Part shown: piece after piece, positions 27,001-48,000 of the stretch
Layout: each line of letters starts with the position of its first letter
How positions within the stretch are numbered: position 1 is the first letter of the stretch
Source of the DNA: Octopus sinensis
Lineage: Eukaryota
Assembly: GCF_006345805.1 (NCBI RefSeq)
Contig: NW_021836151.1
Coordinates: 124,001 to 188,000, forward strand
Length of the DNA: 64,000 nt
Reading direction: 5' to 3'
Position numbers: made by a program

Positions 27001-30000
27001 GTCAGTAATCGAGACTAAATCTGTAAACATTTCTTCTAATTTCAGGCTATTGCGACCATGACAGAGGCATGTGGACAAGTAATGGAGTCCCTCAAGTTGT
27101 CCCAAGTGATGGAAGTAGTTCTCCTTATTGGGAACATCCTCAACCTCAACACTCGGAACGCGGAAACTTACGGATTTGACATCAATATTCTGCCCCGAGT
27201 ATATTTCCGTGGTGATTCCAGTTGGTGGACACTCGTTCGGCCGACGGAACAACTTCGTTTATGCATTTCTTGGTCGAGACTGTCGAGAAGAAATGTCCGG
27301 AGAGCCTGACCTTTGGGGAGGATCTTGTATCGGTGAGGAGTGCGGCCAATGGTAGGACAGTGATAAAACATGATAGTGAGTATTGACGTAATCTGTCAGT
27401 CTATTTCTCAATATGAACGAAATCTGAACAGATTGGCAACGCTTATCCCCAACTACGAGTCACTAGTCGAGGGAGACTATTTTGTCGACGTTTTCCAAGT
27501 TGGTGATTTGGGTGATTTTGAGGACTTTTATGAGAAGGTTATCCCCCAACAAGAACTTATTGTGGACATGAAGTCACGGATGGACGACTCGGTCAACTCG
27601 ATGTTCAAGTTTTTTGCGCTTTCTTCACGATCTACTTCTTGTACTGCAATTTTGGAGTCGATTGCTAAATTCAGTAAGCAGTTTAAGGTTTTCATTTTGT
27701 GGCATTTTTAAGGACACGGTGGACGAGATCAATCAGCGTAAGGAGAATGAGAATCGTAGGAAGAACTCGCTTAACAAGCGGAAGGCGACTTTTAGTAAGT
27801 ATGATGCGAATGAGGGGATCATGGAGAGTTTGTTGGAGGCACTCAAGTCGGGGAGTGCGTTTAAACACGCTCACAGAAAACGAGGAAATGGTTTTGGGTT
27901 GGGGTTATTTGTAGAGAAGCCGTTGGAAGTTAAGAAAATTTGATTTATTTAATGAACTTTCAAAGTAGAATATTATGATTTTTAACGTGTGTTCTTATTT
28001 TTATTCTTTTTATTAGTTTCCTGTTATAAGTTAGGATCTATTTTCAAATTTAATCTACGAAGCTTTATAAAATAATCAGAAATTTGTCCATTTTTATACA
28101 AATGTATTTTTTGCACAAATATTTAAATTTCATAAAATAAAAAACATCAAGATTAGAAAAGATGGTCATTTTTACCGTATGAAAATTAAAAAACCCAATT
28201 TTAATTAAGTTTATTAATCTCAATTTTGAAATTTCAATATTTTTTATTGGCTTGTGACATAATATTTTAAGGATTTGGATATTTAAAATATTTTGTGGTT
28301 AAATCGAATTTCTATAAATCTGTCTTTTCTAAAAGTGTCTGCCAAAAAATAATTAAAAATAGGTTTTAATTTTTAAATAATTTTAGTTGATCAAAATAAA
28401 TTCATCAATTCAAAAATTGGCGGAATTAAATGAAATGGCGACTACTTTAATAGTCATTCTGGTTTTTTAACCATTGATGATGAGAATAGAACTTAAAAGA
28501 ACAAATTCTCTTGTAAATTCGAAAAAAACATTCAAAATACAGTAAAGTCTCTCGAATCCGCCATACCCTCGAATCCGCCAATTATAATTAATAAATTCTC
28601 TTATCCGCCATTTTTCCTAGAAAAAATTCTCGAATCCGCCAAATTCTCGAATCCGCCATATTTTTTATAATGAATCCGCCATGTGTCCTAATTTTAAATA
28701 ATTTTTTTAATTAAATTTACTGATATATAATCAATTTATTAACACGTTACATCTGTCTTTGTTGTTGTATTAATGAAACGTAACTGTACAAGACTAAAAA
28801 ACAATCAAAAAATTGAGATTTTGAAGTTTATTCAAACAAATAATGAATTATCTTCACTCAAAATTTCTGAGATTTTTTCAAAAAAATACAACTTGCCTGT
28901 TTCTCGCCGATCTATTGATGATCTGAAAATTAAAAGAGGATCTAACATTATGTTTCATAACCTAAGATCTGAAATTTCCCGCAAACAATATTTAAAGTTT
29001 GCTGAAATCGATGATAATACTATTGCTTGGGTCAATTCAATGGATCTTAAAGGAGCCATTTTAAATGATAGGATTATTACTGAGAAAGCAAAAGCCTTTG
29101 CATTGAATCTCGGGATTACTGAATTCAAAGGAAGCAAAGGGTGGTTAGTTAAATTTAAAAAGAGGAATGGTTTGAAATTACGTAATATGCATGGAGAATC
29201 TGCAACTCCAAATTTTGACCCTAATTTAGTATCAGATTTCATTGAATTAATCAAAAATAAAATCAGTCTTTACGGAGCTCAAAATGTTTATAATGCCGAT
29301 GAAACTGGCTTATTTTACAAAATGATACCGTCTAAGAGTGTTTGTAAAACCATTAAATCTGGCTATAAAGCTAAATTCTTTAATATAGAAAATCTTGAGT
29401 ATATTGAAAACATTGGATCTTCAATGATCCAAACTCTAAGAAGAAACAAGTCGAAACTTACTGATTTTTTTGTTTTTAATTAATTATTTTGGCTTAATAA
29501 TTTAAATCAGGAGATCGGGTCCCGCATGTCTGCCATCACAGGCGACGCCCGCGAATCGAGATGGTTTTTCGAGCGGATATCCCTTGCGATAGTACGCTCT
29601 AACTCTTTCTCGATCGCGTCGGCTTCCCGCCCTTGAAGCTTTTAATTAATTAACTTGTAGTTATTGGTTATTTTTATTTAAAAAAAAATTAATAAAGTTT
29701 ATAATTTAAATTATTAATGGATTAAAAAATCGATAAGTCTTTCGAATCCGCCAGATTTTGCCGATCCCCGAAATTGGCGAATTCGAGAGACTTTACTGTA
29801 CTTTAAAAATTGAAATCCTTTTTTATCAAAATGAATTTACTCGAACGTATAAATTAATTAAAAAAGAACAACAATTTAATGATTTTTTTTAATGATCTTT
29901 TCATTTTAAAAATTTTATTGCTCGGTAAATTCTATGGCTCAGTTTTACCTATGGTACTTAAATAACTGTGTTTTACGATTTTTCCTTCAAGCGAAATGAC

Positions 30001-45000: not shown

Positions 45001-48000
45001 GATGCGACTACTTTAATAGGAATTTTGATTCTTTTACCATTGATGGTGAGAATAAAGAACTTAAACGAACAAATTCTCTTGTGAATTCGGAAAAAACATT
45101 CAAAATACTTTAAAAATTAAAATCCTTTTTTTATCAAAATGAATTTACTCGAACATATAAATTTACTAAATGAATGAATGAATTTTTTTATTATAACGGA
45201 AAAGCCGAAAAAAAGAGAAAAAGTTAATAAGACAACGTATGCCTCTTCTCCGTTGTTTCCCTCTTTTTTTATATTTAATTCAAGATTGGAGGAGAAAAGG
45301 CTCTCTCAAGAACACTTCCAATCGTTTACGTCGTGTCTTCCATCTCTTGAGGAATGGGTTGGTCCAGCTGGAGTCCATTTGCCAATTTGATGGCATATCG
45401 TCTCGTCTTTTTGAGCCTAGTGATAATGCCATCCATTTCAGCGAACCCGTAGGTAAGCAATGGTTCGAAATTTCTTAAAAAGAACTACAATTTAATAATT
45501 TTTTCATTTTAAAAATTTTATTGCTCGCCAAATTCTATTGCTCGGTTTTACCTATGGTACTTAAATAATTGTGTTTGATCTCAAACATTTCGGATTCTTT
45601 CTTTACATAACCTAATATAGAGATACTAATCCATTCTTACAGAAATTTTTAAAGAATTAATGCATCTTCTAAAACAGGAAAGATCAGATTTCCTAGTAAA
45701 TCAAATTCTTTCCATACAACAACAGACTAAAAATATGCTTAATTCATAGTTACACGACCTTTCATAAACAAGCTGACTTTAATGTTCTAGTAAACGAACT
45801 TGGATCAATTAAAATAAAAACATTTTCCTCAAAAAATAATAAAAAATCAAAGAACAAAGTCAGACTCCGCATAATAATGAGTCACAAAATTCCCGATTTT
45901 ATTGCCACTTTCGTCAAAACAGAGCAAGGAATAGCACGACTGACACAAATAGCATGGGTCATGAGGACACAGGTTGTTCTGAGTAGTGATCCATCTCGCC
46001 ACAAACATCTTACAACACTGACATGCCATCTTCAGCCGCTTTGACTTGCCTATTCTCAGAGGGTACTTCCCAAAATCCAACTCATCATTGCACGTAAGTA
46101 GCCTAACAAATCACCCAAAAAGGCAACCTCACATCCGAGAACACAACAACATGCTGACAGTTCCCCTGATGCATATAAACGTAGGGATATCCCAACTGCA
46201 CAGTCAAATCACTAAATTGAGTCCCCTCCATCTTATATACTCCCGATTTAGACAGTTTTTCCCGCCATTTACAATTTCCTGTAAAATTTCGCGCCCATTC
46301 CTTTATTGGCCTGTAAGTCAGAATACAAGCCAATTACGAGCTATATTTCAAAGAGAAGGGACTCCTACAGTCATCGTAGAAGGAATCCCCAATATAGAAA
46401 AGACCAGACGTATACAAATCCTACAAATACTCATAAATTCACAAACCGATGCTCTGTTGTGGTTAACCTCTAATTCTACGCGGGAACTCAAATCTCCAGC
46501 AATTTCCAAGTCCCGGGGACACCGAATTGCATCCCGAAGGTTGCTGAGGTATTGGTGGCCCAACACGACGTACTCTTGCTCGGGGATTGGGGAATTCTGC
46601 ACTCACAAGAGGGGACCAACCGAGGGGTTGTTGGGACGGAAGACCTGGACGGTCAAAGCCAGGGTGTTGGAGAATGGAGACATGGTTTTGTCTTTGCTTG
46701 TCTACTGGTAAAATGGCGGGAAATACTATTCCTGGATATAAATGGCGGGAAGAATAGCTTTGATATTTTCTTCGTTTTTGAATGTAGTTGTTGTCGAGAA
46801 GACGTTTTTTGGAGTCCTCCATTTTAAGTCTAATTATATTTATTTTAATAAATATTTCATTTTTAAATATAAATAAATACTTTAAATTTTCTAAGTTTGT
46901 ATGGAGGTTGATGTGAGGTTCTGTTCGTCCTTTTGGTTGGTCCAAATCAAGCAATTTTGGACTATAAATGCCTAACTTCTGCTTACTCACAACTCTCCTC
47001 CAGATGGGGAATTTGACCTGCCGTTTCGGGTGGCATGAGGTCCTCCAATCTACATTGATCGTGCTCTGCTAGGAAGGACTCGGCACATTCCAGAAGGGTT
47101 TTATAAATTTTGTAAACGTTGACAAAATCCTGAAAATGTACAACACATCACCAATAACCATTAATTATACTATTTGTTTTAAATAACAAAAACTATTATA
47201 CAAAATTTAATTTAATAATAATAAATTACTAAGAAAACGCTTATAAAGTCAATGTCACTGACTATATCAATTTTTATTAATAAAAAGAAACTAATTAATT
47301 GCCTAACCAAGTCCTCAGCTTTCGAAGTAAACAAAGGGTAGTTCTCCACACTAAATTTTAGAAAAGGACTGGCTCTATAGACCTTCGACAGTTTTTTCAT
47401 GACTATATTTCAGGATTGGCGAGCATCAACCGAGATACTCTCCGAAATCTTGTTAAGAACAATATAAGTCTGTAGATATACATCCTACTGTCTTGAGCAC
47501 CTCATGTTTTATTTGGTGACTAACTAAATAAAAAAATTGCTTTTAGCAGCTTAAAAAGCTAAGAGACAATATGGGGTCCTAATATGAAGATATTCACGAA
47601 TTTGTTATATTCCGACGATTTTTGTGCAACGATAGATGCAAAAATACATTGTTTGATATGTAGTCGCTATACCGAAAGAATACAACCTAAAACGGAATTA
47701 CAATTCCAATCATAGATCATACGATTATTTCGAAGGTACTAAGTTGTTTATTTAACAAAAAGGTTCAATGCCTGTTTTAAAGCTTAATGAATTACGAAAT
47801 AATCTGACTTCGTCAATACTCATTTCACAAAAAATCACAATCGAAGTACTGCATAAGCTACTGCAAATTGTGAAATCAGCAGAATGCTTGCAATGAATGG
47901 GAAATCATATTGTGATGGCGATTTCATTAAAAATGTCTTGTGAAAACAGTCCTGATTAGGCGCATTTTTTTAAAGAAATTTCTTTGATCAGAAATACAGT

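What the first reader, a model, noticed from the sequence alone, without database searches (positions are those of the whole stretch)
27657..45955. Kilobase direct duplication of the DIAPH/SNAPC3 junction enclosing a mosaic of gene shards
Seen: 27657-30388 and 43635-45955 are colinear (~1.4 kb core). Both breakpoints lie inside coding sequence, so DIAPH stays intact on the left and SNAPC3 on the right. Between them lie 13 kb. Removing the later Helitron and hAT nest leaves ~3.6 kb of abutted unrelated pieces: FMNL-like exons, an R4 RT fragment, a hAT end, an unknown exon and Myb repeats. The gene pieces keep their introns, so they were copied from DNA. Inference: a chain of templated insertions, or reintegration of a circular or ligated DNA mosaic, with a giant target duplication and no transposon ends.
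Basis: partly seen in the sequence, partly recalled or inferred. Interest (0 to 1): 0.72.

Follow-up and report, generated by a model that had tools for sequence, protein, structure and literature searches.

The report
Duplication bracketing an imported DNA patchwork
About 1.4 kb between two tail-to-tail genes was copied, and some 6 kb of DNA from elsewhere (broken genes and broken mobile elements) sits between the two copies; this is a known kind of copy-and-paste rearrangement, here old and overgrown by later transposons.

Summary
27657-30388 and 43635-45955 are colinear direct copies of an ancestral unit of about 1.4-1.5 kb. The left breakpoint lies in the penultimate exon of a Diaphanous-type formin and the right one in the last exon of SNAPC3, so each gene keeps one whole 3' end. 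Between the copies lie 13,246 bp with no likeness to the flanks and no terminal inverted repeats. Of these, 6,846 bp are a later nest of three hAT elements, each with a perfect 8-bp target duplication. The other 6,400 bp are a patchwork: 264 bp unknown, a Helitron 3' fragment with a canonical end, a 96-bp satellite, a non-Diaphanous formin fragment with its tiny introns, an internal reverse-transcriptase fragment, a hAT-like end and a decayed Myb gene fragment.

Corrections: the Helitron has no identifiable 5' end, so "later" is unshown. "FMNL" and "R4" are unsupported. "No transposon ends" holds only at the outer junctions.

Topologically this is a "cycle of templated insertions", in which foreign template(s) are pasted in and a host segment is re-replicated. 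Whether there were many donors or one pre-assembled donor, such as a cargo-carrying Helitron, cannot be decided from the window. It is a new member of a known kind, of moderate interest.

The parts
25093..27943 (+). Resident Diaphanous-type formin gene, 3' two-thirds (GBD, FH2, DAD). The last exon is 27713-27943. Introns are tiny (26688-26712, 27199-27221, 27688-27712; 23-25 nt).
   Evidence: Pfam Drf_GBD E 4.4e-08, FH2 E 5e-10 to 1e-11 in four ORFs, Drf_DAD E 8.7e-06; intron reading.
27657..30388 (+). Copy A of the duplicated unit. It holds the last 31 nt of the penultimate formin exon, a 25-nt intron, the last exon, the intergenic DNA, and the last 35 codons plus 3' UTR of SNAPC3 (a dead copy with a 2-codon deletion).
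28540..29798 (+). pogo/Tc5-type non-autonomous transposon private to copy A, with 24-nt inverted ends, TA flanks and a Tc5 HTH ORF. It encloses the out-of-order block 29507-29645.
   Evidence: arms 28531-28563 / 29775-29807, 91% complementary; HTH_Tnp_Tc5 E 1.9e-13.
30389..30652 (.). Piece S1: 264 bp of unknown origin between the end of copy A and the Helitron 3' end.
   Evidence: No Pfam hit in 4 of 4 small ORFs; no match elsewhere in the window.
30653..31640 (-). Helitron 3' fragment. The C-terminal helicase part aligns to Helraiser residues 1152-1460 of 1496. About 135 nt follow, then a hairpin and CTAG followed by T at 30653. The Rep domain, the helicase N-terminus and the 5' end are missing.
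   Evidence: PDB phmmer 7lcc E 4.9e-24; Pfam PIF1 E 1.5e-18, with a frameshifted continuation at E 0.0034; end read.
32305..33344 (.). 96-bp satellite, 10.9 copies, 96% matches. It is preceded by 31641-32304 (AT-rich, 26% GC) and followed by (ACAG)n at 33382-33432.
33460..34072 (+). Left half of the formin-paralogue fragment (proline run at 33657-33700, FH2-start-like reading). It has at least one frameshift.
   Evidence: Read by eye only. Pfam found no FH2 in 7 of 7 ORFs here. Contiguity with 40919 onward follows from the hAT-2 target duplication.
34073..40910 (+). hAT-2, the outer element of the nest, with 8-bp target duplication ACTTAATC at 34065-34072 and 40911-40918. Its degenerate transposase lies at 38747-40726 (+).
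   Evidence: transposase is 44-50% identical to that of the hAT at 59348-61180; weak hAT dimerisation domain E 0.0066.
34186..35855 (-). hAT-3, nested, with target duplication GTGATCAG. It sits in the left arm of an inverted-repeat element spanning about 34150-38590.
   Evidence: ORF 34373-35143(-) gives hAT dimerisation domain E 0.011.
36413..38068 (-). hAT-1, nested, with perfect 15-nt ends and target duplication CCTTAAGC. Transposase ORFs lie at 36560-37940 (-).
40919..41440 (+). Right half of the formin-paralogue fragment, covering FH2 profile positions about 205-270 of 372. Introns are retained at 41178-41200 (23 nt) and 41282-41301 (20 nt). The first of these positions has no intron in the resident formin.
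   Evidence: Pfam FH2 E 1e-06 (28.6 bits, below the 34.8 cut-off) and E 0.22 in the next frame; PDB DAAM1 E 5.8e-4, FMNL3 0.014, mDia1 0.8; no tblastn match to the resident formin.
41530..42055 (-). Internal reverse-transcriptase fragment of a non-LTR element, cut at both ends, with no poly(A) side.
   Evidence: Pfam RVT_1 E 1.8e-07, 31.5 bits; best PDB matches are R2 proteins at E 0.04-0.1 against L1 ORF2p at 0.6-1.7; reading.
42424..42438 (-). Solo hAT-like end (12 of 15 bases match the hAT-1 end) abutting ATTTAGAC. That 8-mer resembles the target duplication GTTTAGAC of the hAT at 59348-61180. No partner end was found.
   Evidence: Weak: 1.1 such matches are expected by chance per window.
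42934..43634 (+). Myb-gene fragment. It has an in-frame stop, at least one frameshift, and one candidate in-frame 21-nt intron (43467-43487). The junction cuts it at 43634.
   Evidence: Pfam Myb E 8.9e-05, 23.0 bits, below the 24.4 cut-off; PDB generic Myb E 0.016-1.
43635..45955 (+). Copy B of the duplicated unit, with private insertions at 43999-44387, 44546-44842 and 45191-45467. It carries a dead copy of the formin last exon (5 codon changes, all non-synonymous), and the intron acceptor has shifted by 1 nt.
45847..47068 (-). Resident SNAPC3 gene; its last exon spans the right breakpoint.
   Evidence: Pfam SNAPC3 E 1.6e-19, 5.2e-18 and 2.9e-04 in three ORFs covering profile positions 1-196 of 199.

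Best explanation
I propose one old copy-and-paste rearrangement of the 'templated-insertion cycle' type. A break or collapsed fork occurred at 30388, in the SNAPC3 last exon. The end left the locus and copied or captured about 6.4 kb of DNA from elsewhere. It then rejoined the locus about 1.4 kb upstream, at 27657 in the formin's penultimate exon, so that stretch was made twice. Because the two genes converge, the duplication leaves one intact 3' end for each gene, which is probably why the event could be kept.

I favour few donors (one to three) over many. The imported DNA contains a Helitron 3' terminus with 264 bp of flank, and its contents are the kind of mixed cargo Helitrons carry: a helicase remnant, a satellite, an intron-bearing formin fragment, an RT fragment, a hAT end and the 5' part of a Myb gene.

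Later events were the insertion of a hAT into the formin fragment, which was itself invaded (the 6.8-kb nest), a pogo element in copy A, and three small repeats in copy B. The copies then drifted apart by 5-16%.

Shown: the duplication, the breakpoints, the foreignness of the insert, the nesting order and the Helitron end. Inferred: a single event, the number of donors and the repair pathway.
For: - Direct repeat with exact ends inside two exons.
- The insert has no likeness to either flank or to anything else in the window: 0 blastn hits at E<=0.01 for its three non-nest stretches, and no tblastn hit to the resident formin or SNAPC3.
- The insert ends show no inverted repeat: score 8 against a shuffle mean of 9.2.
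- No part of the duplicated unit lies inside the insert. A later insertion would therefore have had to hit the junction itself.
- The formin fragment keeps two tiny introns that restore the FH2 frame, one at a position where the resident formin has none.
- Helitron 3' end: helicase tail matches Helraiser at E 4.9e-24; hairpin plus CTAG then T about 135 nt after the stop. It is the only one of 11 hairpin-CTRR-T candidates in the window that adjoins a helicase ORF.
- Perfect 8-bp target duplications show that the three hATs came in after the formin fragment existed.
- All transposon insertions inside the copies are private to one copy.
- Edge blocks differ by 4.6-4.7% and middle blocks by 10.6-16.5%. 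This fits each edge being constrained in only one copy.
- Literature: cycles of templated insertions re-replicate a host segment, and most have only two junctions (PMC7025897, passages). Helitrons carry retrotransposons, DNA transposons, exons, introns and gene 5' ends (PMC4224331, abstract and passages).
Against: - No donor locus was seen. The protein searches found nothing for the formin fragment or the Myb fragment, nor for the control from the resident formin, so they say nothing either way.
- No Helitron 5' end could be identified. The two candidate A|TC sites (33348/9 and 43632/3) rest on three bases each.
- The two gene fragments are antisense to the helicase remnant.
- S1 lies outside the Helitron end.
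- The left half of the formin fragment is read by eye only; Pfam found nothing there.
- A single event cannot be told from a duplication followed by later arrivals and deletions.
- No reads were available, so the assembly is unchecked.
Confidence: 0.5

Rival explanations
1. This is the multi-donor chain. In one event five or more separate loci were copied in turn: S1, the Helitron piece, the formin gene, the RT element, and the hAT end with the Myb gene. The chain then returned to the locus.
For: The pieces abut without recognisable transposon ends between them. The RT fragment is cut on both sides and lacks a poly(A) side. The formin and Myb fragments are each truncated. Cancer genomes show cycles with up to seven templates (PMC7025897, passages).
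Against: The paper read says most such events have only two junctions. A Helitron terminus inside the insert offers a simpler source for the mixture (PMC4224331). No donor was seen. The boundaries between pieces are known only to within 40-90 bp, so junction microhomology could not be examined.
Confidence: 0.2
2. This is stepwise growth. A plain tandem duplication arose first, with little or no filler, or larger than what is now seen. Later a cargo-carrying Helitron and other elements arrived, and deletions trimmed the inner ends of the copies.
For: The locus clearly accumulates insertions: at least 8 later transposon insertions lie in 18 kb. Taking an A|TC site at 43632/3 as the Helitron 5' end would leave only 264 + 2 bp of filler between the copies.
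Against: That 5' end rests on three bases and falls inside Myb coding sequence, 2 nt from copy B, which would be an unlikely landing spot. No remnant of the unit, of upstream formin exons or of upstream SNAPC3 exons lies inside the insert. The intron-bearing gene fragments still need a DNA-level capture step.
Confidence: 0.15
3. This is an assembly artefact, with two haplotypes or two contigs wrongly joined through repeat-rich DNA.
For: No read evidence was available. The region is full of repeats.
Against: There is no N in the window. The copies differ by 5-16% and by four private transposon insertions, which is far more than two reads of one allele would show. The copies end at exact, complementary points in two exons. 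The insert is unique sequence at both junctions.
Confidence: 0.07
4. This is hAT alternative transposition (reversed-ends transposition with re-replication), which in maize makes tandem direct duplications and composite insertions.
For: hAT elements are plentiful here, and a solo hAT-like end lies in the insert. The mechanism is known to re-replicate flanking DNA (PMC3744419 abstract; PMC4270019 passages).
Against: The expected signature is hAT termini and 8-bp target duplications at the duplication breakpoints. It is absent at both outer junctions. The three complete hATs each have their own ordinary 8-bp duplication inside the insert.
Confidence: 0.03

Closest known systems
Cycles of templated insertions (somatic structural variants in human cancers; PMC7025897)
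   Same: A string of DNA copied from elsewhere is inserted at one locus. The path returns to the host chromosome so that a host segment is made twice. Whole exons or gene fragments from other genes can be pasted in.
   Different: Here the event is fixed in a germline and old (5-16% divergence). The re-copied host segment is only about 1.4 kb. The donors are unseen, so copy gain at donors and a single-event origin are untested.
Helitrons carrying captured host sequence (bat and maize Helitrons; PMC4224331)
   Same: A canonical 3' end (hairpin, CTAG, then T) and a helicase remnant are present. The contents match the described cargo: exons with introns, the 5' part of a gene, a retrotransposon piece and a DNA-transposon piece.
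   Different: No 5' end, no Rep domain and no second copy were seen. The gene fragments are antisense to the helicase remnant. The element does not reach the left junction, since 264 bp of other DNA intervene. Helitrons make no target duplication, so the 1.4-kb repeat needs another cause.
Tandem direct duplications and composite insertions made by alternative transposition of hAT elements in maize (PMC3744419, PMC4270019)
   Same: A direct duplication flanks inserted DNA that includes hAT sequence, with re-replication of flanking DNA.
   Different: The breakpoints here carry neither hAT termini nor 8-bp target duplications.
Filler or captured DNA at repaired double-strand breaks and at tandem-duplication junctions (general knowledge, recalled; no paper read for this point)
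   Same: Unrelated fragments are joined with little or no homology at a repair junction. The visible overlap at the two outer junctions here is 0 nt.
   Different: Such fillers are usually tens to hundreds of bp. Here the filler is 6.4 kb before the later insertions.

Membership tests
Cycle of templated insertions | Inserted DNA is foreign to the host locus | tested here: met
   0 blastn hits of the non-nest insert to the rest of the window. No tblastn hit to the resident formin or SNAPC3.
Cycle of templated insertions | The path returns to the host chromosome upstream, so that a host segment is duplicated on both sides of the insert | tested here: met
   27657-30388 = 43635-45955, with exact ends.
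Cycle of templated insertions | Each inserted segment is a copy whose donor is retained elsewhere | not testable with these tools
   Only this window is on hand. Protein searches found neither parents nor the control.
Cycle of templated insertions | All junctions arose in one event | not testable with these tools
   This needs donor loci, related genomes or populations.
Helitron (with captured cargo) | 3' end: short hairpin, then CTRR, inserted before a T | tested here: met
   8-bp stem, then CTAG at 30653 followed by T, about 135 nt after the helicase stop.
Helitron (with captured cargo) | Rep/helicase protein | tested here: inconclusive
   Only the helicase tail is present (Helraiser residues 1152-1460 of 1496, E 4.9e-24). 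No Rep domain is present anywhere in the window.
Helitron (with captured cargo) | 5' end beginning TC after a host A | tested here: inconclusive
   Candidate sites at 33348/9 and 43632/3 are three-base matches only.
Helitron (with captured cargo) | Other copies of the family sharing ends and cargo | not testable with these tools
   No second Helitron piece lies in the window.
hAT alternative transposition (tandem duplication / composite insertion) | hAT termini and 8-bp target duplications at the duplication breakpoints | tested here: not met
   The outer junctions show neither.
Ordinary cut-and-paste transposon with target-site duplication | Terminal inverted repeats at the ends of the inserted DNA and a short fixed-length duplication | tested here: not met
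   No inverted repeat at the insert ends (score 8 against a shuffle mean of 9.2). The repeat is about 1.4 kb.
hAT elements (the nest) | Inverted ends, 8-bp target duplication, hAT transposase remnants | tested here: met
   Three elements each have a perfect 8-bp duplication. Seven end-motif matches were found against 1.1 expected. Weak hAT dimerisation or DUF4371 hits were found.
   Over 29-31 residues, DAAM1 gives E 5.8e-4 (22.9 bits), FMNL3 0.014 (18.8 bits) and mDia1 0.8. The fragment is not Diaphanous-type; FMNL against DAAM is undecided.
   No transposon library was available. The best solved relatives are R2 proteins at E 0.04-0.1, which is not significant. The endonuclease part is absent from the fragment.

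The most novel reading that the evidence does not exclude
This is a germline-fixed, multi-donor templated-insertion cycle in an animal with ultra-short introns. It pasted the promoter-proximal part of a Myb gene in front of a duplicated formin 3' exon. In copy B the intron acceptor has moved by one base, and by frame arithmetic this puts the Myb reading frame in phase with the DAD exon. The rearrangement may therefore have built a transcribable Myb-DAD chimera. If other such repeat-bracketed mosaics exist in this genome, replication-based copy-and-paste would be a regular source of exon shuffling there.
Probability: 0.15. Interest if true: 0.6.

Novelty: new member of a known kind. Interest (0 to 1): 0.35.

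Why it matters
Insertions of strung-together templates flanked by a re-copied host segment are well described as somatic events in tumours. Clear, base-resolved examples that were inherited and kept for a long time are less familiar.

This one shows how two converging genes can survive a large insertion between them, because the duplication hands each gene a whole 3' end. It also shows how intron-bearing gene pieces come to lie next to new 3' exons. In addition it is a test case for separating break-repair mosaics from Helitron cargo.

The practical value is modest. It flags a locus worth checking with long reads, and it gives a pattern (kilobase direct repeats bracketing foreign DNA) that can be searched for genome-wide.

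Tried and rejected
1. **Parent genes of the fragments.** Word-indexed protein searches found nothing for the formin fragment, the Myb fragment, or the control from the resident formin's C-terminus. The organism's proteins seem not to be reachable, so the blanks carry no weight.
2. **Exhaustive search with the Myb fragment**. It gave 31 hits at E<=1e-3, with identity 25-47% and no close parent. Two hits (P0002, P0004) match SNAPC4 and c-Myb about equally in the PDB. 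I dropped my idea that the fragment comes from SNAPC4. SNAPC4 was also absent from the direct PDB hits.
3. **ESM Atlas on the Myb fragment**. Generic Myb clusters appeared at 0.85 or below, which is a lead only.
4. **PDB searches.** The 92-residue formin ORF and the 117-residue 'unknown exon' gave 0 hits each.
5. **Formin fragment as a decayed copy of the resident formin.** Rejected: no DNA or protein match, and an intron at a position where the resident gene has none.
6. **A larger tandem duplication later eroded.** Not supported: nothing in the insert resembles upstream formin exons or SNAPC3 and its right-hand neighbours.
7. **The insert as one giant transposon.** No inverted ends.
8. **Further Helitron ends inside the insert.** None is credible.
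9. **Rfam and tRNA scans of the insert.** Nothing found.
10. **NAHR between repeats at the breakpoints.** No repeat lies at 27657 or 30388.

Full report
**Observation**

A self-comparison of the window gave 32 non-self matches at E<=1e-10. Eight of them tie 27657-30388 (copy A) to 43635-45955 (copy B), with E down to 1e-167. Seven are colinear. The eighth (29507-29642 = 44146-44281) is out of order. In copy A it lies inside a pogo/Tc5-type element at 28540-29798, which has 24-nt inverted ends, TA flanks and a Tc5 HTH ORF. It belongs to a repeat family that also occurs at 16141-16320, so it is not part of the ancestral unit.

Copy B has three private insertions: 43999-44387, 44546-44842 and 45191-45467. 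The last is related to 63232-63509. Without private insertions the unit is 1,473 bp in A and 1,358 bp in B. The window contains no N.

**Breakpoints**

Identity begins exactly at 27657 = 43635, and the preceding bases differ. In copy A this point is 31 nt before the donor of a 25-nt intron (27688-27712). That intron precedes the last exon of a Diaphanous-type formin (27713-27943, carrying the DAD motif).

Identity ends at 30388 = 45955, and the next bases differ. This lies inside the last exon of SNAPC3 on the - strand, 35 codons before its stop. Copy A keeps the formin whole and copy B keeps SNAPC3 whole. That outcome follows automatically for any tandem duplication whose ends fall in two converging genes.

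**Age**

The edge blocks differ by 4.7% (17 mismatches in 364 aligned bases) and 4.6% (22 in 481). The middle blocks differ by 10.6-16.5%. This fits each edge being under constraint in only one copy while the middle is free in both.

In the dead copy of the formin last exon, 5 of 76 codons differ and all 5 changes are non-synonymous. The dead SNAPC3 end in copy A has one replacement and a two-codon deletion. All transposon insertions inside the copies are private to one copy. The duplication is therefore real sequence history and old, not two readings of one allele.

**The 13,246 bp between the copies**

*Later arrivals.* A hAT element (hAT-2, 34073-40910) is flanked by a perfect 8-bp duplication, ACTTAATC. 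Inside it lies an inverted-repeat element (about 34150-38590). That element holds hAT-3 (34186-35855, duplication GTGATCAG) and hAT-1 (36413-38068, duplication CCTTAAGC). The hAT end motif occurs 7 times in the window against 1.1 expected. The transposase remnants are weak but of hAT type. The nest with one duplication copy makes up 6,846 bp.

*What remains is 6,400 bp.*
- **S1**, 264 bp with no match to anything.
- **A Helitron 3' fragment on the - strand.** An ORF at 30790-31548 aligns to Helraiser residues 1152-1460 of 1496 (E 4.9e-24). A frameshifted continuation runs to about 31640. About 135 nt after the stop come a hairpin and CTAG followed by T at 30653. Of 11 hairpin-CTRR-T candidates in the whole window, this is the only one next to a helicase ORF. 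The Rep domain, the front of the helicase and the 5' end are missing.
- **AT-rich DNA, a 96-bp satellite of 10.9 copies, and (ACAG)n**.
- **A formin fragment on the + strand, interrupted by the hAT nest.** The right half (40919-41440) gives Pfam FH2 at E 1e-06 (28.6 bits, below the 34.8 cut-off) in one frame and E 0.22 in the next. GT-AG introns of 23 nt (41178-41200) and 20 nt (41282-41301) link these frames correctly. The left half (33460-34072: a proline run, then a reading that looks like the start of FH2, with a frameshift) is my reading only. Pfam found nothing in 7 of 7 ORFs there. The hAT-2 target duplication does show that 34072 and 40919 were once adjacent.
- **An internal reverse-transcriptase fragment on the - strand** (41530-42055; RVT_1 E 1.8e-07). 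It is cut at both sides.
- **A hAT-like solo end** at 42424-42438, a 12-of-15 match and therefore weak.
- **A Myb-gene fragment** (42934-43634). Myb repeats are legible in three frames, with an in-frame stop and at least one frameshift. There is one candidate in-frame 21-nt intron (43467-43487). The fragment is cut by the junction.

None of these pieces has another copy in the window. The ends of the insert are not inverted repeats.

**Introns**

The resident formin has introns of 23-25 nt (26688-26712, 27199-27221, 27688-27712). The fragments show the same style. According to the abstract of PMC13644364, introns under 30 bp are known among animals only in myxobolid myxozoans and Dicyema japonicum. 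I take this only as context for why 20-25-nt introns are credible here.

The intron at 41178-41200 in the fragment falls at a position where the resident formin reads straight through. The fragment has no DNA or protein match to the resident gene. It therefore comes from a paralogue, copied as DNA.

The fragment's best solved relatives are DAAM1 (E 5.8e-4), then FMNL3 (0.014), with mDia1 at 0.8. The comparison covers about 30 residues. The fragment is not Diaphanous-type, but FMNL is not specifically supported.

The RT's best solved relatives are R2 proteins at E 0.04-0.1, against 0.6-1.7 for L1. This is not significant, and R4 cannot be tested here.

The Myb type is unresolved.

The Helitron is a truncated fragment. 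Taking an A|TC site at 33348/9 as its 5' end gives 2,696 bp. That end, however, rests on three bases at the edge of the satellite.

**Mechanism**

The topology is a foreign string inserted with a host segment made twice around it. This is what PMC7025897 (passages read) defines as a cycle of templated insertions: strings that return to the host chromosome and 'rereplicate a segment'. That paper reports 1,467 such cycles and notes that most have only two junctions.

I take this as the best description. The path leaves the locus at 30388, copies or captures DNA from elsewhere, and re-enters at 27657. At both outer junctions the visible overlap is 0 nt. That leans toward end joining rather than long microhomology, but 5% drift could hide it.

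The number of donors is open. The Helitron terminus, with 264 bp of flank, sits inside the insert. [quoted passage not shown] The patchwork may therefore have been assembled in a Helitron elsewhere and imported as one or a few templates. I favour that version for economy of events. The window cannot prove it: there is no 5' end, the gene fragments are antisense to the helicase, and no second copy was seen.

**Rivals**

- Stepwise growth, meaning duplication first and arrivals and deletions later. No trace of the unit or of upstream exons inside the insert speaks against simple versions.
- Misassembly. There is no N, the copies are strongly divergent, and the end points are exact and complementary. 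No reads were available to check.
- hAT alternative transposition. This makes tandem duplications and composite insertions in maize (PMC3744419 abstract; PMC4270019 passages). Its signature of hAT ends and 8-bp duplications at the breakpoints is absent here.

**A detail worth a look**

In copy B the last base of the intron acceptor has changed, and the next AG is one base further on. The intron would then be 26 nt instead of 25. The Myb frame that runs into the junction (start coordinates divisible by 3) plus 26 nt lands in the frame of the DAD exon. An in-frame Myb-DAD reading is therefore possible on paper. I checked this by frame arithmetic only; the joined translation was left out. The upstream Myb part is decayed and the DAD exon copy shows only non-synonymous changes, so I give this little weight.

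**What stayed unchecked**

- Donor loci, read support and related genomes.
- Any transposon library.
- The closed collections metagenome contigs and viral contigs, which were not used.
- Genome contigs, which holds only bacteria and archaea and was not used.
- Supplements of the papers, which were not opened.
- I made no literature search for inherited examples in animals. The listing (12 of 72 papers shown) was mostly human cancer and human germline work, and I make no claim of absence.

**Verdict**

This is a new member of a known kind; I score interest at 0.35.

Noticed in passing
window 62467-62551 (-): A selenocysteine tRNA gene (Rfam RF01852, 56.6 bits, E 8.6e-09). ARAGORN did not report it. 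From recall, tRNA-Sec genes in vertebrates use SNAPc-dependent promoters, and a SNAPC3 gene lies 15 kb away. This is probably coincidence.
   Followed up: no
window 43666-43692: In copy B the intron acceptor has shifted by one base. By frame arithmetic this puts the Myb frame that enters the junction in phase with the duplicated DAD exon, giving a possible Myb-DAD chimeric reading.
   Followed up: partly
window 26688-26712, 27199-27221, 27688-27712, 41178-41200, 41282-41301: Introns of 20-25 nt with GT-AG ends occur in the resident formin and in the imported formin fragment. The abstract of PMC13644364 reports such ultra-short introns among animals only in myxobolid myxozoans and Dicyema japonicum.
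   Followed up: partly
window 34150-38590: An element with arms of about 65 nt in inverted orientation (34149-34181 plus 35864-35905 against 38508-38587) lies inside hAT-2. It hosts hAT-3 and hAT-1. Its kind is unknown.
   Followed up: partly
window 59348-61180: A complete-looking hAT with a perfect 8-bp target duplication (GTTTAGAC). Its transposase is 44-50% identical to the degenerate one of hAT-2.
   Followed up: partly
window 36090-36236 and 7761-7907: A 147-bp stretch is 97% identical in inverted orientation between the hAT nest and a region 28 kb upstream. It is a young repeat of unknown family.
   Followed up: no
window 43999-44387, 16141-16320, 29507-29645: A short repeat family was inserted in copy B, is present upstream of the formin gene, and is partly embedded in the pogo element of copy A. 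The copies at 29507-29645 and 44146-44284 are 95% identical.
   Followed up: partly
window 5499-23634: The left third of the window is dense with non-LTR retrotransposon remains: RVT_1 at 6134-6430, 11728-12408 and 19841-20734(-), and weak endonuclease signals at 21042-21449 and 22357-23634. Tc3/Tc5 transposase pieces also lie here (18412-18672, 21510-22001).
   Followed up: no
window 49756-52255: To the right of SNAPC3 lie a TPR-repeat gene on the - strand (49756-51386) and a GEMIN8-like ORF (51968-52255, E 5.3e-11). GEMIN8 is another snRNP-biogenesis gene lying near SNAPC3.
   Followed up: no
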